This document shows, piece after piece, positions 10,457-39,175 of a stretch of 64,000 bases of DNA. Position numbers and translations under genes: made by a program. The notes under the pieces were generated by a model that did not search any database, was not told the origin of the DNA, and worked only from the letters and a program-made list of their open reading frames with translations. How positions within the stretch are numbered: position 1 is the first letter of the stretch; every line of letters begins with the position of its first letter. The stretch is taken from contig CM000434.1 in the NCBI GenBank assembly GCA_000165345.1, positions 1,056,001 through 1,120,000 on the forward strand, written 5' to 3'.

Positions 10457-11947
10457 ATGATGGAAATAGCCAAGTATAGAGGGACTAGAGATTCCATTAA
10501 GATCGAGAGCCCAAAAGAGAAATTGGAAATTAAAAGTGGAGAATATATAGGGAGTATAGATGGAGAGTTTGATGAATTAAATCATGAGATTTATGAATTC
10601 ATTCACCAATGTTTGAACACTGACGATTCAGATCTGTTATTTCCAACTTTTGAGGAACAGTTACAAAGTACTTGTATTAGCAATGGCAGTGAAACAGTTA
10701 AAACTGGTGGTACATATATGGATGTGAATCCTCTTCAAGGAGATAGAGAGTCCTTTAGGTTTGGGTTTGAGAACGAAAATAATTCTCAGTATATGAATAT
10801 TAAACAAGAGTGTATGAATACAGCAAGTAATAATGTTGGGGGATTTTCTATGTCACTTGAAAACACTTTTGATTTCAATGGAATATTACTAAAGGCTTCA
10901 TTTCTTGGAAAAACTGACATTATTAAGTCATGTTTAGATAATGGAGCTAACGTCTTACATACCGATAAGGTTGGACGTACTGCATTACACTATGCATCAG
11001 CTTGTGGATGGCTTCCAACAATGAAGCTGCTTCTCAAGTACAATTGCGATATAAATCGTAGAGATCACAAAAATTGGACAGCTCTCCATATTGGAGTTTC
11101 AAAGAAATTCCCAGAAGTTGTGGAATTATTACTTTCTTCTGGAGCAGATTTAAGTTTGGGACTTCCACATACATGTGCACCATGTAGGGGGGGACCAATT
11201 TCTAGTAAAGCTATTCATTTTGCTGCAATTAGAGGTAATCGTATGATCACGGAGATACTTTTAAAGTATGGGGCTGATATTAATGATGTAGATGAAGATA
11301 ATAAGACTCCTTTGCATTATGCAAGCTTCAGATCAAATTTAGATTACGCCAAATGGGTAATTGAGAAAGGAGCTGACGTAAATGCAAAGGATAAATACGG
11401 GAGGACTCCTCTCCATATAGCATCCTTGTCTGGTAATCTTGAAATTACGAAGATACTCATAGAAAATGGATCTGAAGTCCGAGCTAGGGATATCTGGGAT
11501 ATGTCTCCTTTAAGCCTTGCATTAACTAGAGAACATCCTGAAATGGTTTCTTATTTGGAGTCAATTTCCGGTGAAAAGTCATCTGAAATCTCTGTTATTA
11601 GAGGATTTGAATTAGATACAATGGAATCTATAGTATTAAATACCATAGTTACTGGATTACAAGAACCAAAAAAAGAATTCATTGCTAGAGTGATTAAGAC
11701 TATTGGATCACAAAGAAGCCTGCAACTTTACGAAAACGCCATGAAGGTTGAGAATTCTGGCGGGCTCTTGACAGCGGACATGTCAAGGAGAAAAACTATT
11801 GGAGGAGTCTTCTGCTACCTCCTTAAACAACTTGTTGCTGAAGATCAAATTACTATTCAGGAATGGAATTATATTCGACAAGAAGAGAAGGAAAGAATTA
11901 ACGCTAAGAACATTCTAAAACGTAATAATAGACGATGTCAGGTCTAG
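10457..11947 (+). CDS. Ankyrin-repeat protein of 496 aa
   Basis: ATG at 10457. It has at least six consecutive ANK repeats, for example GRTALHYASACGWLPTMKLLLKYNCDINRRDHKNWTALHIGV, NKTPLHYASFRSNLDYAKWVIEKGADVNAKDKYGRTPLHIAS and LSGNLEITKILIENGSEV. These match the TPLH..A...G......LL..GA. consensus. An E2F-like GGCGGGAAA lies 170 bp upstream at 10287-10295. Confidence 0.75.
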   Translation: MMEIAKYRGTRDSIKIESPKEKLEIKSGEYIGSIDGEFDELNHEIYEFIHQCLNTDDSDLLFPTFEEQLQSTCISNGSETVKTGGTYMDVNPLQGDRESFRFGFENENNSQYMNIKQECMNTASNNVGGFSMSLENTFDFNGILLKASFLGKTDIIKSCLDNGANVLHTDKVGRTALHYASACGWLPTMKLLLKYNCDINRRDHKNWTALHIGVSKKFPEVVELLLSSGADLSLGLPHTCAPCRGGPISSKAIHFAAIRGNRMITEILLKYGADINDVDEDNKTPLHYASFRSNLDYAKWVIEKGADVNAKDKYGRTPLHIASLSGNLEITKILIENGSEVRARDIWDMSPLSLALTREHPEMVSYLESISGEKSSEISVIRGFELDTMESIVLNTIVTGLQEPKKEFIARVIKTIGSQRSLQLYENAMKVENSGGLLTADMSRRKTIGGVFCYLLKQLVAEDQITIQEWNYIRQEEKERINAKNILKRNNRRCQV

Positions 11948-13621: not shown

Positions 13622-16600
13622 CTAAAAAATAAATGTCCTTACTGCATTTGAAGATTTATTTTGGTTCTTAAGTTTCTCTCTCAGAGAAGGTGATGCAACG
13701 GGGGAGTTTGAGTTGGTGACTTTTTGCCTAGGTGAAATCTCTGGCCCCCGTTTCTCTTGAAATGAATTGGGTTTTAACACGGAATTTGAGTCGAGGTTAC
13801 CACTTTTAAAGTTTAGACTAATATAGACTATGGCACATGTTAGCCCGACTGAAATAGCAAATATAAGCGTAATATTGTGTTTAATGTAATAAAGAGTGAA
13901 TCTTGAAATACCAAAGTATACAAAAAGGTCTGACAGGTGATGTGAGATGGTTTCGCCAGCAACTCCAAGCTCTATTGAAGAAAATAGCAGTACTGAAGCA
14001 ATAAATGATAGAAATACTACTCCTAATACTAGCTTGGAGTTATTTTTAAAGAGGGTAATAAAAGTAATTATTGTGAATATAAGTGAATAAAGTAAATATC
14101 GCACAATCATGAAAATCTGGTTCCTTACAAATCCTTTTCGAATCCCAGAAAGGTCCATTTCTATCCAAAGCTCAACGACTCTATCTTTAGTTTTGCTGTC
14201 TAAATTAATGGAGCCCCAATTATCAGAGTCTTCAAGAGAGTTTTGAGCTAAAATTGTGGCTTCTCTTACAAAGTTCATCCAATTATAATGTTGTTTGGCA
14301 ATTTCTATTGCATTTTTGAGAGCGTATTTGAGAGGTCTATGGAGTAAGTTCTTAAGAGCTATTAAATTCTCCTTCATCAGCTGCTCTTTATCATCCTCTA
14401 TTACGTTCATAAGCTCCATTAAGGCATCTTTCCAGGATTCCTCATTTGAGCAGTATATACCATTCATCTCTTTAATCACGTTATCCTTTAAATCTTCGAA
14501 AGATTCTAAAATTACAGAATCAACTATGGGAAGGGTCAATTTATTTCTTATTGAGATGTTTTTTCTAATTGCAATGGATTTAGCAAAGTTGTATGAGTAC
14601 TTTCTACAAACTTTCTTCCAGTCTACCATTTTTCTTTCAATAAATTCATCCAGTTCTGAGTTAAGCCTCTTCCAGTATTTTAAATGAAGATCAGTCTCAT
14701 TAATTATGGTAATGTGGGTATTAAAAACAAGTTTGGACGAATTCTTCATTTTCTCCAACTTCTTTTCAAAGTCTTCCTTGCTAACTTTGTAATAAGAATC
14801 GTCCACTTCTTCTAGAGATCTAATCACATTCAAAGCTTGTTCGAAGTCATCTAGTAAAATCTTCTCAATCTCTTCTTGGTTCCTCTTTTTAAGTTTTGAA
14901 AGAGCTGATTCAATCTTTTCTTGGGTTAATGACCCATCAATATTACAACAAGGACTATTTCTATAGGAACTTATATCAGACTCAAAACTTCCAAAAGATT
15001 TATTTAAGGCCATTTCTATATCATTCAGCGTACTAGCTACCAAATTATTGGTAAATTCTATCAGCATAGATTGCGGAATTGGAATCTTCTCATGGAACTG
15101 CTCAATCTGGTGGGTTGCATGAGAAATATGGATATCAATTACATCACTACAGTGAGATCTTATTAGTTCACAATTTTTACTTAAGATAGACTTATACTGC
15201 TTCTCGAAGTGAGGTTGGACACTCTTTAGCAAGCTACTAAAGTCAAAATAGTCAAACTCCGAAATGGATGACCAATATGATTCGATATCTTTCAAAGTTT
15301 TGTTATATATTGCATCAGCTTCTATCTCCAGTAAAGGATATATATTCTCATTCAAAAGTTGGTTTTCTAACCTAGTACCAAAAATAAGTAATGTATTCTC
15401 GACCAAGTTACTTGTTTTAAGATCGCCTTTTGTAATCCCAAGGTTCAAAGATTTAAATGAATTGAAAATATACGAATGTTCAGAAAATAGTTCCAGTAAA
15501 TCTGCAATTTCTGCTCCAGTTAATCTACGTTCCTCACCTGAGCTAGGCTTAAAGATATCTAAAAATATGGATCTATTGTTTCCTTTCCCAAATTGATGAT
15601 CTTGATCTCGATCAAGATCATCAATTTTATTTTGGTACCGGTACCCATTATATTTTTTTTCAGTTCCGAAATATGGAATTTTATAAAAATTGAATCTTTC
15701 AATAAATGAATCAAGGTTTTTAAATATCTTACTTTGGGATGTTTCTGGCCAAATATACTTTTCTAATTTAGACTTGAGCAAGTCTTTATATTTTCTAGAA
15801 AACTTTGCTGGTTCTTGTTCATCCTTTAAATCAAGATTCCTGTGTAGAATCCAAGAAATATTTGTTTTATGAAGATTCTCAACCAAAAAAATGAGGTTTT
15901 TCTTTAAGCTCTTTTTATTCGGGATACTTGACTCATTGAGTTTTCTTACAAATAAGCTAGAAAACATCACTGCTTTACTGATTAAAAGCCTTGTGAAGTC
16001 AATAAGCAGGATATCTATCTCATTAATTGAATTAACTAAGACATAATCTGAAAGAATAAGAGACAGTATTGCTAATTTAATTGACGAGTTGATCCCCCTC
16101 CCAATTACTAAAGACTCAGTATCCAAAAGAATATAATCATTATTTCTTGAAGAATTAGCAAATATGGATCCATCTCCATTAGCTTGGACCCATCTAACTC
16201 CATCAGATTCCTTCTCATTTACATCTTCAAAGGATGGTGACTCTCCTGAAATCAAGCTAACCAAAGTTGTTTTTCCAGATCTGGTCAGACCTAATGATAA
16301 AACAAATGAAACTGGAGATTCAATTTTTCTAATTTTTTCAATGGATTCAATAGGTATCTTAATATTACCTTCATGATCAATCTCAAATAGCTTATAATGT
16401 TGTTTGTCTGAAATTGGCTGATTATTACTCACTCCAAACAAACTAACAGCTACCACACAGAAGGAGATAACAAACTGGAAGAATGATCTTCTCATCTGCA
16501 GTAACTCTATTGTATCTAAGAAAACTGGCCTAGGGGTCTTTTTGACTAAAGGCCTCTTTTTTACCCCCCCCAATTTACATTTACTTCTAAAAGGATCAAA

Positions 16601-16729
16601 TCCCAATCTTAAAACCCAAATATAATTCAAATCCAAAAAGTATACAAAACTAGAGCATAACCAATTTGCAATCTCACAATAGCAATCATCAAAAAATGAT
16701 GAGAAAAATAAAAATTGGGATCCCCCCAT
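13622..16729 (-). CDS. Sey1/RHD3-type large membrane GTPase (atlastin/GBP dynamin-like superfamily), 1035 aa from the first ATG
   Basis: Family motifs are present in order: P-loop GLTRSGKTTLVSLISG, switch region DGVRWV (compare TKGIW), LLDTESL (compare LLDTEG/MDVEG), and NSSIKLAILSLILSDYVLVNS (compare the Sey1/GBP SALFALAtlLSSvliYNs block). A long helical middle domain follows, then three hydrophobic segments near the C-terminus (IFMIVRYLLYSLIFTIITFITLF, LVLGVVFLSFIASVLLFSSI, LIFAISVGLTCAIVYISL) and a Ser-rich tail. The ATG at 16729 is genuine. A second in-frame ATG about 235 nt downstream, near 16495, gives MRRSFFQFVISFCVVAVSLFGVS, which looks like a signal peptide. Start choice is therefore uncertain. 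Confidence 0.7.
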   Translation of the reverse strand: MGGSQFLFFSSFFDDCYCEIANWLCSSFVYFLDLNYIWVLRLGFDPFRSKCKLGGVKKRPLVKKTPRPVFLDTIELLQMRRSFFQFVISFCVVAVSLFGVSNNQPISDKQHYKLFEIDHEGNIKIPIESIEKIRKIESPVSFVLSLGLTRSGKTTLVSLISGESPSFEDVNEKESDGVRWVQANGDGSIFANSSRNNDYILLDTESLVIGRGINSSIKLAILSLILSDYVLVNSINEIDILLIDFTRLLISKAVMFSSLFVRKLNESSIPNKKSLKKNLIFLVENLHKTNISWILHRNLDLKDEQEPAKFSRKYKDLLKSKLEKYIWPETSQSKIFKNLDSFIERFNFYKIPYFGTEKKYNGYRYQNKIDDLDRDQDHQFGKGNNRSIFLDIFKPSSGEERRLTGAEIADLLELFSEHSYIFNSFKSLNLGITKGDLKTSNLVENTLLIFGTRLENQLLNENIYPLLEIEADAIYNKTLKDIESYWSSISEFDYFDFSSLLKSVQPHFEKQYKSILSKNCELIRSHCSDVIDIHISHATHQIEQFHEKIPIPQSMLIEFTNNLVASTLNDIEMALNKSFGSFESDISSYRNSPCCNIDGSLTQEKIESALSKLKKRNQEEIEKILLDDFEQALNVIRSLEEVDDSYYKVSKEDFEKKLEKMKNSSKLVFNTHITIINETDLHLKYWKRLNSELDEFIERKMVDWKKVCRKYSYNFAKSIAIRKNISIRNKLTLPIVDSVILESFEDLKDNVIKEMNGIYCSNEESWKDALMELMNVIEDDKEQLMKENLIALKNLLHRPLKYALKNAIEIAKQHYNWMNFVREATILAQNSLEDSDNWGSINLDSKTKDRVVELWIEMDLSGIRKGFVRNQIFMIVRYLLYSLIFTIITFITLFKNNSKLVLGVVFLSFIASVLLFSSIELGVAGETISHHLSDLFVYFGISRFTLYYIKHNITLIFAISVGLTCAIVYISLNFKSGNLDSNSVLKPNSFQEKRGPEISPRQKVTNSNSPVASPSLREKLKNQNKSSNAVRTFIF

Positions 16730-16930
16730 TTGGTTGGGAAAATGATATTATGAATTTCCAGTATGGCGGGAACATTTTTGGGAAAAAAAAATCCAAATGC
16801 CAAATTTATTTGTTATCAAACTAAGGAGAAACAGAGAGGCGATTTTTGTAGGGTTTTGAGATTAATATAGACCAAAAATAGAGGAAAACTCGCCCGATCT
16901 GACTTTTTAATTGATGTATGCTTGTAAGGA

Positions 16931-18880
16931 ATGAGCTCGGCAAATGCTAAGAGCTCCATTTCAAGTGGTCCTGTAAAAAGTGATTCCATCAATGATGATA
17001 CGAGGATTGAGGCAGAGCTCGTACAACGAGGGAATTTAGTTGGGGAGGCATCACTGGAATGGTCTCTTAATTTTCTGACTCGAAATTGTGATTTTTTAAA
17101 TGAAAGATCAATGTCTCCACTTTCAATTTACGCAGTCCATGTATGGACGGGATCACAGAATTGTGAATTTGCTAATAAGCTTTCTTTTCAAGGAAAGATA
17201 AGAAATATGTTGTTTAAGTTGTTAATTCATCCTGTTCACGAGTTAGTAAACAATTTAAAGACTAATGCTTATTATATTGCAGCTTTGAGTTCCAAAAAAC
17301 CTTTTGATTTTGAACAAAATATGTCCTCACATGGGCTTGAGATCCCCTTAATATCGGGAAAATACTTTGATGGAGATTTTATTCTGAACCAGATGAAGTG
17401 GATCTACAAGTTGTTCCATAATAAAGAGGAGGATGTAGGAAAGCTGTCATTAGAACTCGAAGAAGACGATGAGTTTTTTGATATTACGTTTTCAGATGAT
17501 TTAATAGAGTTTAGCAAGGTTTTCAGCTCAAAGTTGATTTTTCATTGGCTAACTCACCATATTCTCACAAACTTTTTGTATAATCCTAACGGTCCTATTT
17601 CTCTTCTAAGCTTCAACATTCTAATTGAAAAGCTTTCACCCTTCTTTTCCAAATATACAGAGTGCTCACAAATTATGTACTCGGATATTATTGCCTTTTT
17701 TGACTCTGTTTGTGGGATTTGGAGAAATATGAAGGAGAAAAATATCAACAACTTGCTTTCAGTTGCTAATTGTTTAGAAAAATATACTTCAGAGAGCGAA
17801 ACCTTCATGAAATGTCTTACTGATGTTGTTTTAAAGCACTCCCTTGATGAGTTACTTGACAATCTTTCTGAGTTTATTATTGCAATTAATGACGCACTTT
17901 CATGTACAAATTTACATGCACCACTGCCCAGCTCAGCCCGCTCAAACACGTCATCTATGGAGGATAACAAAAAAAAAACAATTCCCCCTGACGTGGATCC
18001 CAAGGAACCATTTAATTCAATTTTTGAGGCAACTGGGTTTGAGCGAGCTGTGTCGGTTTGCAGAGAGTTTCCAGATTTGTTGAGACCCAAGGCGAGGTAC
18101 AGTGAAAAGGTCGTCAAGACGACGCAATTGGTTTTGAACTACTGTTTAAGAAATAACCTAGCAGACCTTAAGTATATAAGGAATATGGGCCACAGAAAAA
18201 AGATAGATGGGGAAAGCTCTAGTGATACTTCAGATTCTCGAAGCAGGGCTAGCTCCTTTCAGGAATTAGACAACAAAAGTTTAGAGGAACAGAATACTGT
18301 TTTGGATGAGAGTGAGGCAATCAGACAATATTTAGCTGGTGGTACATCAAAAAATAGTTTGAATAGTTCTAGTAATGAGAGAAGTAGAGTTCTTTTAGAG
18401 AAGAGTAGCTTGAAGAGGAAAAGCCTTTTTAAGGACGATGACCTAATAGAGTCTGAAAGGCCAAAGAGGTTGAATTTGTATTCAAATGATAAGGGCAAGA
18501 CTGGGAGAAAAATTTCCGTAAGGGGAATTTCTGAGAGCTCAGATTCATCTGAAGACTTTACCCCAAAGCCAATAGTTTCTGAAAAGAGAAGAAACGATGA
18601 GCAGCAATCTGTTCCAAAAAGAGCCCCCAATAAAAGAGCTTCAGCAAGTCCCAATACTGGAGTCTCAAGACAATACCGTCGTTGGAGTGATGAGGAGACA
18701 AGCTTGCTTATTGATGGTGTTAATAAGTTTGGATTAGGAAAATGGAGAATCATCCTAGCTACCTCCAAGTTGACCAACCGTGATGAAGTGGGGCTCAAAG
18801 ATCGTTGGAGGAATCTTGTCAAGGGTGGTCATGTTACTTGGGATCCACAAACTAAGATGTATCGCTCTGTTAAAGGATAG
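16931..18880 (+). CDS. Myb/SANT 'telobox' protein with a single C-terminal TRF-like Myb domain, 649 aa
   Basis: ATG at 16931. The C-terminus RQYRRWSDEETSLLIDGVNKFGLGKWRIILATSKLTNRDEVGLKDRWRNLVKG matches the TRF1/TRF2/Tbf1/Taz1/plant-TRB Myb domain (W..EE...L..GV.K.G.G.W..IL........R......LKDRWRN). This includes the diagnostic LKDRWR telobox helix. The N-terminal 480 aa are helical with no recognised catalytic motif. A Ser/Lys-rich linker carries KRRN/KR basic clusters. Confidence 0.7.
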   Translation: MSSANAKSSISSGPVKSDSINDDTRIEAELVQRGNLVGEASLEWSLNFLTRNCDFLNERSMSPLSIYAVHVWTGSQNCEFANKLSFQGKIRNMLFKLLIHPVHELVNNLKTNAYYIAALSSKKPFDFEQNMSSHGLEIPLISGKYFDGDFILNQMKWIYKLFHNKEEDVGKLSLELEEDDEFFDITFSDDLIEFSKVFSSKLIFHWLTHHILTNFLYNPNGPISLLSFNILIEKLSPFFSKYTECSQIMYSDIIAFFDSVCGIWRNMKEKNINNLLSVANCLEKYTSESETFMKCLTDVVLKHSLDELLDNLSEFIIAINDALSCTNLHAPLPSSARSNTSSMEDNKKKTIPPDVDPKEPFNSIFEATGFERAVSVCREFPDLLRPKARYSEKVVKTTQLVLNYCLRNNLADLKYIRNMGHRKKIDGESSSDTSDSRSRASSFQELDNKSLEEQNTVLDESEAIRQYLAGGTSKNSLNSSSNERSRVLLEKSSLKRKSLFKDDDLIESERPKRLNLYSNDKGKTGRKISVRGISESSDSSEDFTPKPIVSEKRRNDEQQSVPKRAPNKRASASPNTGVSRQYRRWSDEETSLLIDGVNKFGLGKWRIILATSKLTNRDEVGLKDRWRNLVKGGHVTWDPQTKMYRSVKG

Positions 18881-19166: not shown

Positions 19167-21279
19167 ATGTCTCAGAGTTCAACACTTTGGAACCAATCCT
19201 ACTCTAGGGAGTTAATAATGGATCATTCGGAAGGGATTGATTGGATTAGTGGCGATGGTTGCCTGGAGAATATTAAAGATTCACATTTTGTGGATTATAG
19301 TGATCCAAATCAAGTTAATATGGAAGATCCTTTAGGAAATAACTTTTATGATTGTACTGATCTTGATGATAGCTTCCATAATTACTTGATGAAGGGTTTA
19401 CTGGGTGAGAATGTTGAAGGTGGCTCAGGCTCTAATAATTTGAATGATGTTTCCTCCGTGAACAGCATCAGAGGTCAAAGTAATGTTGGCGTTACTATTA
19501 GTCACAACAATGATGCCATTTGCCACAACATTGACCACAGAATTGATAGCGTTGGTATTGGAGTGGGATCTCTTGGGGGGGAAGTTGGAGGAGCTTTAGG
19601 GGTGGGTTTAGGAGGAGTGGGAGGAGGAATAGAGATAGGTTTGGGAGTACAAGTAGGAGAGGTGAGAAATCAAGGGGAGAAGGAGTTTGAGAACATAAGC
19701 TGCAGTTACACGGGGAACTCACATTCCCATCAATTGGAGCCACCAAATGAAGATCTCGTAGAAGATCAGAGTAACTGTTACAGGATATCAGCAACTTCAA
19801 ACAATTTGGGTATTTCCAGTAATCATGGACTGTTATTGGGGGCATCTTCCTCTAGCAAAGTCTTGGGAGCTACGCCATCAGCTCAAATATCATCTTCTTT
19901 GTCATCCTCTTCATCATCATCCTCTTCTTCGTTAGCTTCATCTTCATCGTCATCATCTTCATCACCATCATTAACATTGAATTCAGGGCTTCCACCAATA
20001 TCACTACCACCACGAGCTATACCTCCTATAAACTTATCTCAGAGTTTGATGACTCCCACTACATCTGCATCCTCATCATCAGTTAGCCCAATTTCCTTTT
20101 CTCCAAATTCAATGCAATCAGGCCAAAAGCTGATGGGATTTGATCATTCATTCCCAATGGAAAATACACAAAAGAGAGTTCGAATAGAGCCGGAAGAAAG
20201 GATTAGAATGGGTATTTTCGACGATAGTTTAGTGGAATCTGATGTCAAGTTTGCAGATCACCAGATTGTTGAGTTGGATTCAAGTAAAGGAAGAAGGTGG
20301 AGTAACAATTCAACAACTTCAACAATTTCTTCAAACTTTTCAATAAATACAAGTGATGGCGGATGTGTTAGCCATATTAATGATAGCGTAAACAATGAGA
20401 ATCTTGGATTAATGAGCCATGATTTTCAGCAAGACAAGTTTTGTAATACAGAAGATTTAGGATCCCAGAAGCCGAAAATGGCGGACCAAAGCTATGAAAT
20501 GGGAGTAATTGAAGACGAGAACTATTCAATGGGAGGCCAAATGGAGGGGGAATTTTTTATGAACTCGGATAACTACTTAACTGAAGAGGAAAAGCTCAAG
20601 TTAAGGAGGCGAGGAAGGAGGAGAAGACCAGGTAAGTTAAATATTTCTAAACAATTAACAAAGGATCTGACTCTTTATTGTTTTAAATAGGCGAAATAGA
20701 AGCTTGGAAGACTATAATACCTAGAACTACTGTGGATGAAGCTGAGCACTTTGTACAGACAAGTCAATATAGAATGAGACATGTATATAGAGATCCAAGA
20801 GCTGTGAGCTTCGTTTATAGGTAAGTTAAAGATTATGAAAATCATTCAGTATAAGGAGTTTTTTTCTCATTTGGAATCAATTATTTATAGATGTGTACAA
20901 CATGTGGATTGCCAGTATGAGATGAGGATTTACTTAATATCTCACGAAACTTGTTACGTTCAACACAGAGGTTACCATACAGAGGAGAAACAAAAGTACA
21001 AGAGGCCAGGTAAGTTAATTGTTGAAGAGAGGATTTTTCTTAAATCCTTTCTTTTTTTAATTTAGTGTGGATTTGAGTAATTATCTTTTAGGACTCCCTC
21101 AACACACTTTACCGCTCATTGATGAGCTAATAAGAAAAGGCCTTCCTCCAAAGTCAGTAATTGACCATGCAATTCAAATATATCCAGAGGTAGCCGACCA
21201 ATCAAATATTTCAGTACTTTATAGGCAGATTACGAATAGACAACAATATATTAGAAAACGCCAGAGAAATTATGTTTGA
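19167..21279 (+). CDS. Ser/Gly-rich low-complexity protein with a conserved C-terminal Cys/His domain. Four exons, about 620 aa.
   Basis: Exon 1 is 19167-20631 (ATG verified), ending ...RRRGRRRRP then the first base of a Gly codon. Three introns follow, all starting GTAAGTTA: 20632-20690, 20821-20890 and 21010-21091. Exon 2 is 20691-20820, exon 3 is 20891-21009 and exon 4 is 21092-21279. The phases 1/2/1 close the frame. The spliced C-terminus reads GEIEAWKTIIPRTTVDEAEHFVQTSQYRMRHVYRDPRAVSFVYRCVQHVDCQYEMRIYLISHETCYVQHRGYHTEEKQKYKRPGGLPQHTLPLIDELIRKGLPPKSVIDHAIQIYPEVADQSNISVLYRQITNRQQYIRKRQRNYV*. The track ORFs 20835-21065 and 21067-21279 are intron read-throughs or fragments of this gene. Exon 1 contains (TCN)n poly-Ser and (GGN)n Gly tracts. 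Confidence 0.5.
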
Positions 21280-29907: not shown

Positions 29908-32900
29908 TTATGATCTTGAAGAAAACCTTCTCCAAATTATGACAATTCCATCCGCATCCCCACTTGCTAACAGTGTTGATGATGCATTCACTGCAGTACT
30001 TATTACTGGAGCGGAGTGACCAACTAAAGCTAAATTCTCTTTTTCGCATGAATCATTATTTAACTGGAAAACCCTTACAGAACAATCCTCTGCTGCAGAT
30101 GCTACCCATAGACCATTCCTAGATGAAAAACATGACCTCAAAGGCATCAATGAATGAGGATTCGGAATCCTGAACCTCACCTGTAAAACTACATGAGGAA
30201 CATTCGAAATATCTATCTGACCAGTTGGAGCTTGCAACCGAATATCTATTATAGTTATTGTTGAATCTGCTGCATTTACCACTAATACCGGTAATAATGA
30301 AGAAAGCCCGCCAAATCCCGCGCCGATAGCACTATTTGCATGCGTTTTTCTGACATTAGAATAGTCAGATGATCCATGGACATAAAGCATATTTGTTATA
30401 GCTCTGCTACAAACCTGCATTCCCCTCTTATCAGTAAATCTGAAATCAGTTTCTGTTGAAGTTCTTGATGAAGACTTTGCTGCTATGTTTACAAGAACAT
30501 AAATCCTTCCTTCTTTGCATGCAGCAAAGCAGTAAATTCCAGTACTATCAAAACATAAAGCTCTGATAGTTGAATCAGTTTTAATCTTTTGAGCAACTCC
30601 GACATCTACATTCACAATTCTAAGCAGTGGCTTAGAAGATGAGACAATAAATAGAGATGGTAGAAATGGTAAGTAGGAGCCAACAAGTACTGGAGAGTTG
30701 TCTGAAAATAAGCTAATAGCATGACCAGTAGCTGTTAGGAATCTCCTTACTGTCATATCAATGGATGTAGATAAGAATTCAGATTCATCTGGAGAAAGAG
30801 CTAAAGAGGTGATTGCTCTATTATGCGCTTTTCTTGAATATGCTTCTTCTACTCTTCCGGACCATTCCAAAGATGAATTTTCATCAGCAATACTGTCTTC
30901 TAAACGAGTCTTGTAGCAATAATATGCGTGAATTACCCCATTCTTTCTTGCAACCAAAAGCATTGTATGTGGTTCAGTTGGTATATCTCTACAAAATACA
31001 ATATGAGTAACTGAACTATTCTGATCATCTTTAATATTAATAACTGGCCCAATTCCTCCCTGTTTTTCAACTTGAGTAATGTTAGCTGCTTCTTCCAAGT
31101 CTAATGTTGGAATTAGAAATTCATTTCTATCTAATGTTATTTTAGGTACCGGGAATTTTGGAATTCTAAGACCAAATGCTCTAATTCCATCATTAAATTT
31201 GGAAAAGAGAGAATTATTTAACTGTTTTTGTTGCATTGTATTTCTTTCTAGTGTTAAAGCCAGTTCATCTTTATCAACCATTTCACCTCTGAGGGTGTTA
31301 TTTTCAGCTCCAAATGGGATTCCTTCAGTTTGTTGTGTAATTTTTATATCCAAATGATTTCTGGTATTAATAATCCCCACAATTGATGAAATTAAAGACG
31401 AAATTGAATCTGACTCTATTGATATTATATCCAAATCGCTGGAGATCTTTCTTACTTGTTCAATATCAACCTCTATTTTTGCTGATTCGTGTATTACTCT
31501 ATATAGACTTCCAAACAAAACTACCTTACATCCACTTTCTATAGCTTTTCTAAATATCAAAAAATCATGATTACCAGTACCTTCTTCTAAAGCTTTGAAA
31601 GATTCAATGTTTGCCACGTCATAAACAAAAATTGCAACTCTTGTTCTTGTTAGAAAGCTTTCAATTTGTTGACGTGATTCATCTTCTTCTAAGGCTGTAA
31701 TACTCATTATATTTAATGGCCATCTCTCTCCAACACTTGATTCCCTAACTCTATGGTTAGAACCTTCTGGACCATTGTAAGCATTTTTTAGATATTCTTG
31801 TGAAGAGATGACATGGGCTCCTGGGATATTTGATAACTCAATTGTGAATACCTGTAAGTTATTTTCGTCAACTGAACCTGCGCCAATTTCATCCATAAAC
31901 TTCTTAAGAAGTTGTTTGTCACCACTCCCTGAAGATCCTGCTAACAAAAGTCCGATCTGTCTATCCTGGTAATTTAATACAATTGAGCGAGAATCACGAG
32001 GAAACAATATTTCTGGAATCGATTCCAACAATCCTAACTTTGAAAAAGGATATGAAGATAACCTCAAAAGTCTTTTTATTATTTCTTGTTGTTTTGAAAT
32101 CTCTAATCCGTTCGCAACCTCCTTCTCTTCTCTTTGACTCTGGATTTGAGATGATACCCCCAATATCGAATTACTGCTATCAATATTTTGTGAAACCTGA
32201 TTCTTATTCTGATTTTGGTCCTGATTATGATCATGATCAATACTATCAGAAATAGTACCCAAATCAGAAACTGTTCTCTCTTCAGTCTTACGAGCCAAAA
32301 GCTCCTGATTTAGCTGTTCTCTCTCATCCTTTAGAGAATTACGTTCTGATAAAGCCTTATAAAGTTGGTCCTCCAAACGTGAACAATTGCCCTTTAATTT
32401 CTGAATCTCTATCAATGCCTCCTGGTATTTTGCAAATAATTCACTAAACTCATTCTTCTCCTCCTTTAACTTCTGGAACTGTCTTCTTGCAAGTTTTCCC
32501 CTCCATAATATTTGAGCCTTCAAAACACTTCCTGACAGTCGAATAAAGTATCTCCTCTGCAAATACATCCTAAATGTTGACTGAATTAAACAAACCCTTC
32601 GGATATACAATTTCTCTTCAGCTTCCTTTCTTCTCAAATATACCCTCCATCTTGATTGAATCATTTTGACACATAACTGCATGCATTTCAACTTTTGGCG
32701 CGCAACGTGTCCTCGGAAAATTGTCTGAATTTTCAAAGCAGCCTTTTCTTTAAGTAATAACTTAAATCTTCGTCTGGAAAGAACTCCTTTCCAGATACTC
32801 TGGATGGTAATAATGGCTTTAATAGCCTTCGAGTATTGATTGCGACACAAAATCATCCTCCACAGACTCTGAATCTTTGTAGAAGCTGTATCTCTGACAC

Positions 32901-35601
32901 GTACTCTAAGTTGTTCAAGATCTCGAAAAGCTTCAATCTTCAGAAACACTCTAGTAAGTCCAACTGCCCACTGAGTGGTTTGTTCATGTTTTGAAATCAA
33001 CCCAGAAGAATTTAAATTCTCCATTAACTCAATGATCTGACTCTTTCTTGTATTATTTGATTCAGACAAAGAAGTTACATTCTTTGTTTCTTGAACTTGA
33101 CCTGAATTTAATATACTTCTACACCATCTACCATATTCATCTCTAGACTTACTAATAGAAAGTTGTCCACATGGTGAAAAAAGTATCATATAATCAAGTA
33201 GAAATTCAAAATGTGGAAATCTTACAGGATATCCAGCACGACTAACTTGGATAGCTTGTAGTACTCCACCATACTTGAGTTGTTCTGAGACAGAAATTCT
33301 ATCAAATTCGTCTGGGGAGTTGTTACTATTTGGTTTGATGCATCTGATAAAATGAGGATTTGTTTGCTTAATAGTTGAAATTAGTTTGTTTAACTGATTT
33401 CTAAAAGATGATCCAAGAGTTTGTTGACGTTTTAACTTGGTGTTTGATTCAGAATCTAAGATATGATCTGAGAATTTAGCTTTTATCAAATCTGAAACCC
33501 AAGGATTCTCTGAGCTTGATAAAACTTCAGTGGAATAATGAGAAAGTTGGTCTTTATTTTTCTCTATAAAGTTATCAACACAGTATGAAACAGGGCCTGC
33601 ATAGTGGACTACCACAAAGTTGTTTGGCTTCTTTTTAACAATATCAAACCTGGTATTCTTTCCGCTATATTCCTTGACTAATTTATTCAATAATCCAATA
33701 TTTGATCCCTGTGGAACAAAACACTCTTCATCTATTGCTGGAAGAATTCCCAAAACTGGCTTTTGTTGTTGTAATAATTGAACACAATCTCCATTATCTG
33801 GAAAATCAATTGGATCCCAACTAATATCCTCTTGTATATACAAGTCCTGCTCAATGTTGAAAATATAATCATTAAATATTTGTTGTAATCTTTCATTTGC
33901 AAAGTTAATACAAAGCTGCTCAAAACTGTTATTTGGAAAGCATTCAAAACCAAAAATATCCAGAATCCCACAATACAAATCCTTTTTATCCTTTTCTTGG
34001 TGAGCATCATTAGTTTCATTTTCTCTTGCTCTAGATATCTGAGTGTTTACTAAATGCAAGATATAGTCAAATACTAGAGAATATAATGCTTTTGAAACTG
34101 CATCTTTTGTTGTTTCAGCTTCTTGTACGCTTAAATGTTTCATTATTTCTCCTTCTCTTAACTGAATCTTTCGGCAAGTTAATAGACGAACAATATCATC
34201 CTTAGGTATAGAAAGTAATGAAGAAACAATTTCCAAGTCTTGGAAACATGATTCATGAGGAATTGATGACTCTCCTTCATTTTCTATAAATGTAATATTA
34301 CCCAAGAACATGACTGCTTTAATTATTTTGATGATATTATAAAGTTGGTCATTCGTAATTCCCATAGTTCTTACAGCATATAATGTCCTTTCAAATTGGT
34401 GGAAGTCAGTTTCCTGGCATTCTGAACCCTCCAAGTACTTAAAATTCTTCTCTGAAACTATGTGAGAGAGATCTATTTCCATAGGATTCGAGAATAATTG
34501 CTCCCTTAATTGTGCCATATGAGGATTCAAGACAACATTCTCTGAATTTTTACGCGAAAATAATATGGACTCTGTATTATGTGAAGGGAATCTGTATATC
34601 AGATTCTCTTCATGAGAAGATCCTTGAGAAATAATATGCTTAGCAGCAGAGCAAAGCTGATAAAATATGTGAAAATTCCTCTCTCCTTTTTGTTGATGGC
34701 ATACTCTGACTTTTTCAAGCAAATAAGTATTTATACAGGCACTGCTAATGCACATTGAACTTGAATCAGACTCCAAAGTTGAATTAGAAGTCAACTCAGA
34801 GAACTGAATTTCGATAAACTTTCCAAACCTTGAGGAATTGTTATTTCTCAAAGTTTGAGAATTTCCAAAAGCTTCTAAAAGAGGATTGCTCTGAATAATC
34901 TGATCCTCAACAAATGAATATCTTTTCTCATTTCCAGTACCTGAATCACCAATACCAGAGCTAACACTATTGTTAGATGATCCAACAACTGTCAAAAATT
35001 GAAGAACAAACTTGGTTGTTTCAGTCTTTCCAGCTCCAGATTCCCCACTTATTAATATTGTTTGAGACTTCTTTTGAGTACAAACTCCAGTATATGCCTT
35101 ATTAGTAACACTAAACACATGTGGAATATCGGAATTACTCTTCAGCCTAAACTTCTGAATCATTTCCATAGAATAGAAACCTTCCAAAGTTCTATATGGA
35201 TTTACTGCAATTAAAATTGGGCCGGTAAATGTGTAAATCTTATCAAGATCAAACCTAGAATTAATTGCATGCAAAATTGAAGGCTGATGGAGATGAGTAA
35301 GTTCGCAAAGATCGTCCGGAGTAACCACACCACAATCTGAAAGTTGCTCAGCTGCTCTAATATGAAGCTGCCCCCCCGCCATGTTAGATCCAACCTCCAA
35401 AGGAAGTTTAAAAACAACTTCCTCTGAAACCTCCTCAAGTGTTAACTCATCAACCACATTTGAAACTTTGACTGAAATCTGTGAATCATCCACTCTAGAG
35501 ACAACGCCAGGCCTCCAAACCTCTTTGGGACATGGAATCCATACAAGTGACCCTGGCCCAAAAAGGCCAGTCCCTGAGTCCAGATCTCTGGAGTTCTTCA
35601 T
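29908..35601 (-). CDS. Unconventional myosin heavy chain with a C-terminal WD40 beta-propeller tail (apicomplexan MyoF / class XXII-like), about 1897 aa
   Basis: The track start at 35637 is TTG. The first ATG is 12 codons in, at 35601-35599 (MKNSRDLDSGTGLFGPGSLVWIPCP...). The motor has P-loop GESGAGKTETTK, switch regions and an SH3-like N-terminus. At least five IQ motifs follow (IQSLWR..., IQSIWKGVLSRRRF..., IQTIFRGHVARQKL..., IQSRWRVYLRRK..., IQSTFRMYLQRRYF), then a coiled coil. The tail ends with WD40 repeats (LVGHSAPVISTAVNASSTLLASGDADGIVIIWR). No introns. Class assignment is by architecture only. Confidence 0.85.
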   Translation of the reverse strand: MKNSRDLDSGTGLFGPGSLVWIPCPKEVWRPGVVSRVDDSQISVKVSNVVDELTLEEVSEEVVFKLPLEVGSNMAGGQLHIRAAEQLSDCGVVTPDDLCELTHLHQPSILHAINSRFDLDKIYTFTGPILIAVNPYRTLEGFYSMEMIQKFRLKSNSDIPHVFSVTNKAYTGVCTQKKSQTILISGESGAGKTETTKFVLQFLTVVGSSNNSVSSGIGDSGTGNEKRYSFVEDQIIQSNPLLEAFGNSQTLRNNNSSRFGKFIEIQFSELTSNSTLESDSSSMCISSACINTYLLEKVRVCHQQKGERNFHIFYQLCSAAKHIISQGSSHEENLIYRFPSHNTESILFSRKNSENVVLNPHMAQLREQLFSNPMEIDLSHIVSEKNFKYLEGSECQETDFHQFERTLYAVRTMGITNDQLYNIIKIIKAVMFLGNITFIENEGESSIPHESCFQDLEIVSSLLSIPKDDIVRLLTCRKIQLREGEIMKHLSVQEAETTKDAVSKALYSLVFDYILHLVNTQISRARENETNDAHQEKDKKDLYCGILDIFGFECFPNNSFEQLCINFANERLQQIFNDYIFNIEQDLYIQEDISWDPIDFPDNGDCVQLLQQQKPVLGILPAIDEECFVPQGSNIGLLNKLVKEYSGKNTRFDIVKKKPNNFVVVHYAGPVSYCVDNFIEKNKDQLSHYSTEVLSSSENPWVSDLIKAKFSDHILDSESNTKLKRQQTLGSSFRNQLNKLISTIKQTNPHFIRCIKPNSNNSPDEFDRISVSEQLKYGGVLQAIQVSRAGYPVRFPHFEFLLDYMILFSPCGQLSISKSRDEYGRWCRSILNSGQVQETKNVTSLSESNNTRKSQIIELMENLNSSGLISKHEQTTQWAVGLTRVFLKIEAFRDLEQLRVRVRDTASTKIQSLWRMILCRNQYSKAIKAIITIQSIWKGVLSRRRFKLLLKEKAALKIQTIFRGHVARQKLKCMQLCVKMIQSRWRVYLRRKEAEEKLYIRRVCLIQSTFRMYLQRRYFIRLSGSVLKAQILWRGKLARRQFQKLKEEKNEFSELFAKYQEALIEIQKLKGNCSRLEDQLYKALSERNSLKDEREQLNQELLARKTEERTVSDLGTISDSIDHDHNQDQNQNKNQVSQNIDSSNSILGVSSQIQSQREEKEVANGLEISKQQEIIKRLLRLSSYPFSKLGLLESIPEILFPRDSRSIVLNYQDRQIGLLLAGSSGSGDKQLLKKFMDEIGAGSVDENNLQVFTIELSNIPGAHVISSQEYLKNAYNGPEGSNHRVRESSVGERWPLNIMSITALEEDESRQQIESFLTRTRVAIFVYDVANIESFKALEEGTGNHDFLIFRKAIESGCKVVLFGSLYRVIHESAKIEVDIEQVRKISSDLDIISIESDSISSLISSIVGIINTRNHLDIKITQQTEGIPFGAENNTLRGEMVDKDELALTLERNTMQQKQLNNSLFSKFNDGIRAFGLRIPKFPVPKITLDRNEFLIPTLDLEEAANITQVEKQGGIGPVINIKDDQNSSVTHIVFCRDIPTEPHTMLLVARKNGVIHAYYCYKTRLEDSIADENSSLEWSGRVEEAYSRKAHNRAITSLALSPDESEFLSTSIDMTVRRFLTATGHAISLFSDNSPVLVGSYLPFLPSLFIVSSSKPLLRIVNVDVGVAQKIKTDSTIRALCFDSTGIYCFAACKEGRIYVLVNIAAKSSSRTSTETDFRFTDKRGMQVCSRAITNMLYVHGSSDYSNVRKTHANSAIGAGFGGLSSLLPVLVVNAADSTITIIDIRLQAPTGQIDISNVPHVVLQVRFRIPNPHSLMPLRSCFSSRNGLWVASAAEDCSVRVFQLNNDSCEKENLALVGHSAPVISTAVNASSTLLASGDADGIVIIWRRFSSRS

Positions 35602-35956
35602 AAGTACTTCCAGAGAATTGTGGCAATAATCCTTCAAAAAGAGCCTTGAATTTTTTACTTTCTCTATTTGAAGCTTTAAACTTTAATAAAAAAACATTAA
35701 ATTTTTCAATGCATTTAGACCGGGGTTAATTGATCTCCAATTTTGGCGCCTTTACGATTTTCAGCATCCTTTAACCGGGAAAAGGTCTCCATACATGTTT
35801 TTTGCTATAAAATGCAAATTCAAGATATCCGGGATAGAATGAGGAGCATGGGGTTCGTTCGACTGAAATGCATAATTTTTTCTTATTTAGGGAACTGTTA
35901 ATTTGTCATCCCATATTCTGGGACTTTTATTTTATTCAATTTTAATAGTACAAGGA

Positions 35957-37402
35957 ATGAATAACTTCAAAGTTTCCAGTTTCGTATGCAGAAGTTTTGA
36001 TGAGCTTTACTCCGCTATTCAGACGGAAAATATTGAATACTTGAACTACTCATTTTGTGATACTTTTGGATCCCTTCATCATATTACAATTAGTTCAAAT
36101 TCGTTTAAATCTGGTAAAGATATACAAAAAGGAATTGCATTCGATTCTAGCTCAGTAAGAGGGATGCAGTTTGGAGACTTCTCGGATATGATCGTCGTTC
36201 CAGACTTTGAGAAGGTTTGGATTGACCCATTTTTTGACAGGAAAACCCTCCATGTTGCTTGTTTTGTATTATTCCATACTGGAGAACCTTCCCCTGGTTG
36301 TGTTAGATCAATCTCAAAAAGAGCTCAAGAAGCTCTTTCATTATCCGGGATTGCTGATAAATGTTTTATTGGACCAGAAATTGAATTCTTTGTATTTGAG
36401 TCTGTCAGCTATAATAACTCACCAAACCACAGCTATTTTTGTTTAGACGGCGATGAGGCTTATTGGAATTCTGGTAACAACGCAACTTTCTACCCCCATA
36501 ATAGACCAAATCTTGCAAGTAGAAGACCTCTAAAACAGGCATATTGCGCTCCTTATCCCGTAGATAGAGATTTATCATTGAGAAGTGAAATTCTTGAAGA
36601 GCTTGAGAATATTGGAGTAACAGTAGAAAAGCATCACCATGAGGTTGCAACCTGCCAACATGAAATTGGTGTTCATTGCTCAACCCTTGTTCAGTCAGCT
36701 GATATTGTTGAATCCATCAGATATCTTATAAAAGGAATTGCACATAGAAATAACAAAACTGCCACATTTATGCCAAAACCACTTGGAAATGATAATGGGA
36801 GTGGAATGCATATCAATATTTCTCTTTGGAAAAACGAAAAGAACATATTCTTTGACCCTGAATCAAGTTATTATAATTTATCCAACCAGGCTCTTTACTT
36901 CATTGGTGGAATACTCTCCCATGCAAAGGCTATTATGGCCTTTACAAATCCCACAACCAATAGTTATAAAAGACTTGCTACTGGCTATGAAACTCCAACT
37001 AAGCTTTCATATGGAGCTGGTGACAGAAGCTCTTCTATTAGAATACCTTTGTCAGGGTTTTCATGTACAAAAACCCAAAGAATCGAATTTAGAATCCCTG
37101 ACTCATCTGCATGCCCTCATTTGGCTTTTTCCGCCATTTTGTGTGCTGGAATTGATGGTATTTTGCATAAAATACACCCAGCTGCTTACTTGAATACCAT
37201 TAAGTCTCAAAGTAACGAATATAATTTGCCAAAATCACTTACTGAGGCTCTTCAAAACCTTGAAGAAGATTACGAATTCCTTATCAAAGATGGAGTTTTT
37301 TCGCATGAGTTTATTCTCAACTACATTAAGCTTAAACGCGACGAGGTTGTTCTAGTTGAGTCTTTTCCAACCCCCAAAGAGTTTGAACTGTATTATGACT
37401 GA
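35957..37402 (+). CDS. Glutamine synthetase, prokaryote-type (type I, GlnA-like), 482 aa
   Basis: The track start at 35903 is TTG, encoding a spurious hydrophobic leader. The real ATG is at 35957 (MNNFKVSSF...). GSI signature blocks match E. coli GlnA colinearly: FDSSSVRGMQFGDFSDMIVVPD...IDPFF, GPEIEFFVFE, KPLGNDNGSGMHINISLW, and NSYKRLATGYETPTKLSYGAGDRSSSIRIP. No introns. Confidence 0.85.
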   Translation: MNNFKVSSFVCRSFDELYSAIQTENIEYLNYSFCDTFGSLHHITISSNSFKSGKDIQKGIAFDSSSVRGMQFGDFSDMIVVPDFEKVWIDPFFDRKTLHVACFVLFHTGEPSPGCVRSISKRAQEALSLSGIADKCFIGPEIEFFVFESVSYNNSPNHSYFCLDGDEAYWNSGNNATFYPHNRPNLASRRPLKQAYCAPYPVDRDLSLRSEILEELENIGVTVEKHHHEVATCQHEIGVHCSTLVQSADIVESIRYLIKGIAHRNNKTATFMPKPLGNDNGSGMHINISLWKNEKNIFFDPESSYYNLSNQALYFIGGILSHAKAIMAFTNPTTNSYKRLATGYETPTKLSYGAGDRSSSIRIPLSGFSCTKTQRIEFRIPDSSACPHLAFSAILCAGIDGILHKIHPAAYLNTIKSQSNEYNLPKSLTEALQNLEEDYEFLIKDGVFSHEFILNYIKLKRDEVVLVESFPTPKEFELYYD

Positions 37403-39108: not shown

Positions 39109-39175
39109 GAATGCATGCATTCATGTGGACAACCTATAATTTTGTCCAAATTGAAAATTATTGCATGCACGCGCC
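39109..39175. promoter_or_regulatory. 14-bp perfect palindrome GAATGCATGCATTC plus TTGCATGCACGCGCC between convergent 3' ends
   Basis: The palindrome is at 39109-39122 and the second motif at 39161-39175. The region between the RPC34 stop (38677) and the ankyrin gene stop (39158) is 3'-3'. The second motif actually overlaps the last codons of the minus-strand ankyrin ORF. Confidence 0.45.

What the first reader, a model, noticed from the sequence alone, without database searches (positions are those of the whole stretch)
16931..18880. Candidate telomere/telobox-binding protein: single C-terminal TRF-type Myb domain
The last 60 aa (RRWSDEETSLLIDGVNKFGLGKWRIILATSKLTNRDEVGLKDRWRNLV) carry the telobox recognition helix LKDRWRN found in TRF1/TRF2/Taz1/Tbf1 and plant TRBs. 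The architecture, a long helical N-terminal region plus one C-terminal Myb, is that of TRF-like factors. Telomere-binding proteins of this lineage are poorly defined, so this is a concrete candidate.
Basis: partly seen in the sequence, partly recalled or inferred. Interest (0 to 1): 0.55.

Follow-up and report, generated by a model that had tools for sequence, protein, structure and literature searches.

The report
Cryptosporidium TRF-like telomere-binding protein gene
This is the already-annotated Cryptosporidium parvum gene cgd6_4510, whose protein joins a TRF1/TRF2-type Myb DNA-binding domain to an N-terminal helical domain that models as a TRFH-like fold, so it is the parasite's likely, still untested, binder of double-stranded TTTAGG telomere repeats.

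Summary
Window 16931..18880 (+) is an intact 649-aa ORF with one C-terminal Myb (Pfam E 1.4e-7). The Myb is telobox-type. Its best solved-structure matches are TRF1, zebrafish Terfa and TRF2, ahead of R2R3 Myb, SNAPc4 and CDC5. Helix-3 residues K-D-R-W-R and all three core Trp are conserved, and the domain is basic (pI 10.2).

The idea is not new. The protein is identical to GenBank EAK90042.1/CAD98267.1, annotated "telomeric DNA binding protein; SANT DNA-binding domain", and several orthologues carry similar names. A Toxoplasma Myb protein called a TRF2 homologue shows sub-nuclear foci. No binding or localisation data exist for Cryptosporidium.

The parts
16931..18880 (+). Complete intron-less CDS (649 aa plus TAG) of C. 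parvum chromosome 6 gene, inferred locus tag cgd6_4510; identical to EAK90042.1/CAD98267.1
   Evidence: Locus tag inferred by counting genes back from glutamine synthetase cgd6_4570 at 35903-37402 and by matching Table 6 of PMC12246861.
17045..17902 (+). N-terminal all-alpha core (aa 39-324): TRFH-like fold, candidate dimerisation and partner-docking domain
17903..18205 (+). Conserved but poorly modelled segment (aa 325-425) with invariant D356-P-x-E-P-F-N...F-E...R-A...C-R-E...L-x-P-K387; function unknown, possibly a partner-binding or fold-upon-binding element
   Evidence: Invariant columns; pLDDT 25-47.
18206..18667 (+). Divergent, Ser/Asp/Glu/Lys-rich low-complexity linker (aa 426-579), variable in length between species; basic patches KRR...KRAPNKR just before the Myb (possible NLS or DNA-binding arm, inferred)
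   Evidence: indel-rich alignment columns 480-820; pI 8.84.
18476..18541 (+). Conserved island in the linker, LYSNDKGKTGRKISVRGISESS (aa 516-537); invariant L516 Y517 K527 S529 G532 S534; basophilic-kinase-like RKxS / RxxS patterns followed by acidic Ser cluster (inferred phospho-regulated or docking motif)
18668..18823 (+). Single telobox-type Myb/HTH domain (aa 580-631) with basic N-terminal arm RQYRRW and recognition helix VGLKDRWRNLVK
   Evidence: Pfam E 1.4e-7. PDB ranking TRF1 > Terfa > TRF2 > others. 24/59 identity to the hTRF1 Myb, with K421/D422/R423/W424/R425 and W383/W403 conserved. Nearly invariant across the genus.
18824..18877 (+). Conserved C-terminal tail GGHVTWDPQTKMYRSVKG (aa 632-649), invariant G632 H634 V635 W637 Y644; absent from TRF1/TRF2; role unknown (possible extra DNA contact or Myb extension)
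16765..16772 (+). E2F-type element GGCGGGAA in the 201-bp divergent promoter, 159-166 bp upstream of the ATG (candidate cis-regulator)
   Evidence: 6 occurrences in the window against 0.21 expected, all in gaps between long ORFs.

Best explanation
The gene encodes the Cryptosporidium member of the TRF/Taz1/Tbf1 class of double-stranded telomere-repeat-binding proteins.

Proposed mechanism (inferred):
- The N-terminal TRFH-like helical domain dimerises the protein and docks partner proteins.
- A long flexible, probably phospho-regulated linker tethers one C-terminal telobox Myb per subunit.
- Each Myb inserts helix 3 (K623, D624, R625, R627) into the major groove and its basic arm (R580, R583, R584) into the minor groove of the TTTAGG array. 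The dimer would therefore read two half-sites and coat chromosome ends, giving length control and end protection.

Shown here: the ORF, its conservation, the telobox-type Myb, its basic charge, the all-helical NTD, and the fold resemblance to TRFH.

Inferred: dimerisation, TTTAGG binding, telomere localisation and the capping function.
For: - Single C-terminal Myb, Pfam E 1.4e-7.
- In the full-length search the first 21 PDB matches are all telomere-repeat-binding Mybs.
- For the domain alone, the ranking is TRF1 37.7 bits, Terfa 36.0, TRF2 33.5, then TvMYB21 28.5, AtTRP1 27.7, c-Myb 25.3, SNAPc4 20.8, CEF1 12.5.
- DNA-contact helix residues and the Trp core are conserved; the domain has pI 10.2 and net charge +6.
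- The Myb is almost invariant across a genus in which the linker is free to vary.
- The organism has a near-canonical telomere repeat, TTTAGG (PMC8848321).
- A Toxoplasma Myb protein, TGME49_259860, which its authors call a TRF2 homologue, shows a distinct sub-nuclear pattern (PMC13377188).
- Independent annotators reached the same name.
Against: - There are no binding, ChIP or localisation data for Cryptosporidium.
- TRFH is not detectable by sequence: Pfam TRF is absent in all 12 orthologues, the PDB profile search finds no TRFH, and hhalign gives probability 0.2%.
- Foldseek found no PDB match.
- The AF2 models are only moderate (pLDDT about 62, pTM 0.63-0.65, MSA of 11-12 sequences from one genus).
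- In the replicate, generic helical bundles outrank most TRFH hits.
- The repeat has GG rather than GGG, so recognition may differ from TRF1/2.
- I could not establish orthology to the Toxoplasma protein, which showed no plaque defect on knock-down. An essential capping role is therefore not assured.
Confidence: 0.65

Rival explanations
1. Tbf1-like factor. The protein has the same TRFH plus telobox-Myb build, but it would act mainly at interstitial or subtelomeric telomere-like sites, as a promoter factor or insulator like S. cerevisiae Tbf1. Another protein would cap the terminal repeats.
Against: By sequence the Myb is far closer to TRF1/TRF2 (37.7-33.4 bits) than to ScTbf1 (17.1 bits). None of the six catalogued over-represented C. 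parvum promoter motifs is telobox-like (PMC12246861 Table 3). The 64-kb window has no interstitial TTTAGG dimers or arrays, and single TTTAGG/TTTAGGG units occur at chance frequency. In yeast, Tbf1's non-telomeric role accompanies a changed telomere repeat, whereas Cryptosporidium keeps a near-canonical one.
Confidence: 0.2
2. Non-DNA-binding Myb/SANT module. The domain would bind histone tails or a partner protein in a chromatin complex, as the 'SANT' wording in the annotation and the TERB1 Myb precedent allow.
For: The GenBank name contains 'SANT'. In the Toxoplasma study the protein called a TRF2 homologue is cited with figure panel 1D, which the legend assigns to SANT proteins. There is a weak Pfam match to the CHD1 HTH/SANT-like domain (E 0.012, below cutoff). 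The TERB1 Myb has lost DNA binding (PMC8867601 abstract).
Against: The domain is strongly basic (pI 10.2, net +6). It keeps every helix-3 residue that contacts DNA in hTRF1 (K, D, R, R), whereas SANT domains are acidic on that face (SANT property as stated in PMC13377188). 'SANT' is simply the SMART name for SM00717 (own knowledge).
Confidence: 0.08
3. An ordinary Myb transcription factor of the R2R3, CDC5, SNAPc4 or DMTF1 type with no telomere connection.
For: Generic Pfam Myb_DNA-binding is the only curated family hit. Myb-M shows that Cryptosporidium uses Mybs as developmental regulators.
Against: There is only one repeat. c-Myb, SNAPc4 and CEF1 score 12-25 bits below TRF1. The review table lists CDC5L, the 4R-Myb and Myb-M as other genes. 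The NTD fold points to TRFH.
Confidence: 0.04

Closest known systems
Human TRF1 / TRF2 (and zebrafish Terfa)
   Different: No sequence-detectable TRFH. The helical region is larger (about 285 modelled residues plus a conserved 100-aa segment). There is no acidic (TRF1) or Gly/Arg-rich basic (TRF2) N-terminus. There is an extra conserved 18-aa tail after the Myb. The target repeat is 6 bp, TTTAGG, not TTAGGG.
Fission-yeast Tbf1 and budding-yeast Tbf1
   Different: The Myb is much less similar (ScTbf1 17.1 bits against TRF1 37.7). Tbf1 works largely at non-terminal sites in organisms with altered telomere repeats (own knowledge).
Plant TRFL family / TBP1-type proteins (AtTRP1, NgTRF1, RTBP1)
   Same: Single C-terminal telobox Myb that binds TTTAGGG, the repeat closest to Cryptosporidium's TTTAGG. 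Matches of 23-28 bits that run a few residues past helix 3.
   Different: The plant proteins have a defined fourth-helix Myb extension and no TRFH. The Cryptosporidium tail GGHVTWD...Y shows no evident similarity, and I could not model it.
Toxoplasma gondii TGME49_259860
   Same: An apicomplexan Myb protein that its authors call a TRF2 homologue; distinct sub-nuclear localisation; no plaque defect on knock-down (PMC13377188).
   Different: Orthology was not tested here because the sequence was not retrievable. The Cryptosporidium NTD profile found no relative outside the genus among 1.84 billion representatives.
Plasmodium PfTRZ and PfAP2Tel
   Same: Proposed functional analogues: apicomplexan proteins associated with telomere repeats (PMC12457308).
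   Different: PfTRZ and PfAP2Tel have unrelated DNA-binding domains, C2H2 zinc finger and AP2 respectively (own knowledge), and are not TRF-type. Cryptosporidium appears to keep the ancestral Myb solution.

Membership tests
TRF/Taz1/Tbf1 class of ds-telomere-binding proteins | Telobox-type Myb with the VxxKDRWR(T/N) recognition helix and three conserved Trp | tested here: met
   VGLKDRWRN is present. K/D/R/W/R and W585/W605/W626 are conserved relative to hTRF1. TRF1, Terfa and TRF2 are the top PDB matches.
TRF/Taz1/Tbf1 class of ds-telomere-binding proteins | Exactly one Myb, at the C-terminus | tested here: met
   Single Pfam domain at aa 584-629 of 649 in all 12 orthologues.
TRF/Taz1/Tbf1 class of ds-telomere-binding proteins | TRFH domain recognisable by sequence (Pfam TRF family) | tested here: not met
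   No Pfam TRF hit at E<=10 in any orthologue. PDB profile search finds no TRFH. hhalign against hTRF1+hTRF2 TRFH gives probability 0.2%, E 0.28. From my own knowledge, yeast TRFH domains are also hard to detect by sequence.
TRF/Taz1/Tbf1 class of ds-telomere-binding proteins | TRFH fold (about 200-residue all-alpha bundle) N-terminal to the Myb | tested here: inconclusive
TRF/Taz1/Tbf1 class of ds-telomere-binding proteins | Homodimerisation through the TRFH | not testable with these tools
   Only monomer prediction is available. Needs SEC-MALS, a crystal structure or multimer modelling.
TRF/Taz1/Tbf1 class of ds-telomere-binding proteins | Sequence-specific binding to the organism's duplex telomere repeat (TTTAGG) and localisation at chromosome ends | not testable with these tools
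   The repeat identity comes from the literature. No binding or localisation data were found.
SANT-type (histone-tail-binding, non-DNA-binding) Myb-like domains | Acidic or neutral surface on helix 3 and loss of DNA-contact residues | tested here: not met
   Myb plus tail has pI 10.2 and net +6; the helix-3 region is net +2 with K623, R625, R627 retained.
R2R3 / 3R / CDC5 / SNAPc4 Myb transcription factors | Two or more tandem Myb repeats acting together | tested here: not met
   One repeat only. These families score 12.5-25.3 bits against 37.7 for TRF1.
Plant TRB/SMH single-Myb-histone proteins | N-terminal telobox Myb followed by a histone H1/H5 globular domain and a coiled coil | tested here: not met
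   The Myb is C-terminal and there is no linker-histone Pfam hit.
Plant TRFL family I (TBP1/TRP1) | Myb-extension fourth helix C-terminal to the Myb, required for binding | not tested
Alignments to 2roh/2aje end at aa 635.

The most novel reading that the evidence does not exclude
The protein is a strongly diverged, lineage-specific TRF with three genus-conserved additions: a 100-aa segment after the TRFH-like core (invariant DPxEPFN...RA...CRE...LxPK), a phosphorylatable linker island, and a GGHVxW...Y tail after the Myb. On this reading the additions adapt a shelterin-type anchor to a 6-bp GG-only repeat and to a partner set unlike canonical shelterin. Cryptosporidium, and perhaps Toxoplasma, would then retain the ancestral eukaryotic TRF that Plasmodium replaced with PfTRZ and PfAP2Tel, which would allow a reconstruction of how telomere capping was rewired within Apicomplexa.
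Probability: 0.2. Interest if true: 0.5.

Novelty: already known. Interest (0 to 1): 0.3.

Why it matters
Nothing is experimentally known about how Cryptosporidium, a major diarrhoeal pathogen with eight small chromosomes capped by TTTAGG repeats, protects its chromosome ends. This gene is the obvious entry point, and the present work strengthens it from "has a Myb" to "has a TRF-type Myb plus a probable TRFH-like domain". It also offers an evolutionary contrast with Plasmodium, whose described telomere-associated proteins (PfTRZ, PfAP2Tel, PfGBP2) are not shelterin components. The prediction itself has been in public annotation for years, so the value lies in guiding a straightforward experiment, not in a discovery.

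Tried and rejected
1. Remote homologues of the N-terminal domain. An exhaustive hmmsearch of the NTD profile against 1.84 billion representatives returned only Cryptosporidium.
2. Remote homologues through the Myb plus tail profile. The word-indexed search gave three useless hits: an assembly chimera and two anonymous fragments. I then repeated it at E<=10 with an identical result, which wasted the last search. As a result, orthology to Toxoplasma TGME49_259860 could not be tested.
4. Sequence-level TRFH tests were all negative: Pfam, a PDB profile search and hhalign. A marginal Gemin5 TPR-like hit (E 0.009) was judged to be helical noise.
5. NCBIfam gave no hit, as expected for a prokaryote-oriented library.
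6. A search for telomere repeats or interstitial teloboxes in the window found none above chance.
7. Myb-M identity was considered and rejected. Myb-M is cgd6_2250; this gene is cgd6_4510 by gene order.
8. The Schwarz & Lourido 2023 review and Walzer 2024 were not held in the library, and searching for 'cgd6_4510' found only the 2025 review.

Full report
**1. What is there**

Window 16931..18880 (+) is an uninterrupted ATG-to-TAG ORF of 649 aa. The window is AT-rich (about 27-40% GC) and packed with long intron-less ORFs.

The protein is 100% identical to GenBank CAD98267.1, EAK90042.1 and QOY41339.1 of Cryptosporidium parvum. It lies at 1,070,084-1,072,033 of a 1,307,820-bp chromosome-6 contig, so it is internal and not subtelomeric.

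The locus tag can be inferred from gene order. Glutamine synthetase at 35903-37402 is cgd6_4570 (PMC10222646). Counting the intervening long ORFs back in steps of ten gives cgd6_4510. This is the only chromosome-6 entry in the review's Myb table that is a plain single-repeat Myb. It is listed as '1R-Myb, DNA binding, not stage-specific, single-cell clusters 3, 4, 10', with roles 'based on sequence homology only' (PMC12246861).

**2. Architecture**

Full-length orthologues exist in about eleven other Cryptosporidium species at 96% to 39% identity. Their alignment (A1) shows five regions:
- a conserved N-terminal domain, aa ~25-425;
- an indel-rich Ser/Asp/Glu/Lys linker, aa 426-579;
- one conserved island within the linker, LYSNDKGKTGRKISVRGISESS (aa 516-537);
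- a nearly invariant Myb, aa 580-631;
- a conserved tail, GGHVTWD...Y (aa 632-649).

All coordinates were verified by translation.

**3. The Myb is telobox-type**

- Pfam reports a single Myb_DNA-binding domain (E 1.4e-7) and nothing else above threshold.
- With the full-length protein, the first 21 solved-structure matches are TRF1, TRF2, zebrafish Terfa or plant telomere-binding proteins.
- With the isolated domain, the ranking is TRF1 37.7 bits, Terfa 36.0, TRF2 33.5, Trichomonas MYB21 28.5, AtTRP1 27.7, c-Myb 25.3, SNAPc4 20.8, ScTbf1 17.1 and CEF1/CDC5 12.5.

The ungapped alignment to the hTRF1 Myb has 24 identities in 59 positions. hTRF1 K421, D422, R423, W424 and R425 correspond to K623, D624, R625, W626 and R627, and the other two core Trp are also kept. 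The assignment of these residues as hTRF1's DNA contacts is my own knowledge of the TRF1-DNA structures. The Myb plus tail has pI 10.2 and net charge +6, which argues against an acidic, histone-binding SANT module.

**4. The N-terminal domain**

A profile of aa 20-425 searched exhaustively against 1.84 billion representative proteins found only Cryptosporidium sequences. No PDB sequence relative appeared apart from a marginal Gemin5 hit.

An AlphaFold2 model made without templates was all-helical. It had mean pLDDT 61.6 and pTM 0.63, was well-ordered over sub-sequence residues ~20-305, and was poor after that. Foldseek against the PDB gave nothing (best E 0.8).

Sequence-level tests for TRFH were negative. 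No Pfam TRF hit appeared in any orthologue. hhalign against an alignment of the hTRF1 and hTRF2 TRFH sequences, which I verified against the PDB, gave probability 0.2%. Its only local match paired the invariant LEWSLNFL with TRF2 helix-1 NRWVLKFY. That position is plausible, but the match is not significant.

I therefore rate the TRFH-like fold as probable but not proven.

**5. Biological context**

- The C. parvum telomere repeat is TTTAGG (PMC8848321).
- The window has no TTTAGG arrays or dimers, and single units occur at chance frequency.
- None of the catalogued over-represented C. parvum promoter motifs is telobox-like. This weakly disfavours a Tbf1-like or plant-telobox promoter role.
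- In Toxoplasma, TGME49_259860 is described as a TRF2 homologue with a distinct sub-nuclear localisation and no plaque defect on knock-down (PMC13377188).
- In Plasmodium, the telomere-associated proteins named are PfTRZ, PfAP2Tel and PfGBP2, not shelterin components (PMC12457308).
- Myb-M is the only C. parvum Myb that has been functionally validated.

**6. Mechanism proposed**

I propose a homodimeric TRF-like protein. The TRFH-like domain would dimerise and dock partners. The flexible linker would let the two Mybs reach adjacent sites. Helix 3 and the basic arm would read the TTTAGG duplex.

Of these steps, the domain identities and the conservation are shown. Dimerisation, sequence specificity, telomere localisation and the capping function are inferred. 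My confidence is 0.65.

The rivals are:
- a Tbf1-like role at internal sites (0.2; not mutually exclusive with the main reading);
- a non-DNA-binding SANT-like role (0.08);
- an ordinary Myb transcription factor (0.04).

**7. Novelty and score**

It is therefore already known as an annotation, though untested.

- the TRFH-like fold evidence;
- the residue-level telobox check;
- the locus-tag assignment;
- three genus-conserved features with no counterpart in TRF1/2: the aa 325-425 segment, the linker island and the C-terminal tail.

A specialist would not be surprised by any of this. It does define a clean experiment, so I score interest at 0.3.

Noticed in passing
window 5820, 9446, 10287, 16765, 42992, 56627 (GGCGGGAA); 18953, 26193, 26217, 35744, 39169, 40649, 52547, 58363 (WSGCGCSW): E2F-type elements are strongly over-represented: GGCGGGAA occurs 6 times against 0.21 expected, and the palindromic form 8 times against 0.73 expected. 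All six GGCGGGAA sites and seven of the eight palindromic sites fall in gaps between the long ORFs; 39169 lies inside the ankyrin ORF 39158-40132. One GGCGGGAA sits in the divergent promoter of the TRF-like gene. This fits the published E2F motif of C. parvum.
   Followed up: partly
window 17903-18205 (aa 325-425): This segment has many invariant residues (DPxEPFNxxFE, RAxxxCRE, LxPK), yet AlphaFold places it at pLDDT 25-47. It may be a conserved interaction or fold-upon-binding element with no counterpart in TRF1/2.
   Followed up: partly
window 18476-18541 (aa 516-537) and 18824-18877 (aa 632-649): There is a conserved island in an otherwise free-evolving linker, with RKxS/RxxS patterns followed by an acidic Ser cluster. 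There is also a conserved 18-aa tail after the Myb (GGHVxW...Y). Neither has a counterpart in TRF1/2, and their roles are unknown.
   Followed up: no
P0015 (ENA, 612-bp contig): This 88-aa database protein is a chimera: an N-terminus with a KOW motif like bacterial ribosomal protein L24, fused to the C-terminal Myb of the C. andersoni orthologue. It looks like an assembly or gene-calling artefact in a metagenome.
   Followed up: partly
window 19167-20690 and 13622-16729; loci L001-L003: Gene models for both neighbours differ between assemblies. The downstream gene is called as 507 aa or as 615 aa over 2113 bp, which implies an intron or an extension. The upstream gene is called as 1035 or 957 aa, which implies a different start. 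Neither has any Pfam domain.
   Followed up: no
window 10457-11947 (+): A 496-aa protein combines several ankyrin repeats with a C-terminal PHAX RNA-binding domain (E 1.5e-22). This is an unusual domain combination for the snRNA export adaptor.
   Followed up: no
window 29908-35637 (-): A 1909-aa myosin has a motor head, IQ motifs and a C-terminal WD40 propeller. This architecture is like apicomplexan MyoF (own knowledge).
   Followed up: no
window 17108-17302 (aa ~60-124): The NTD gives a marginal sequence match to the Gemin5 TPR-like dimerisation domain (6rnq; E 0.009 with the profile, 0.17 with the single sequence). It is probably helical-repeat noise, but it recurred in two searches.
   Followed up: partly
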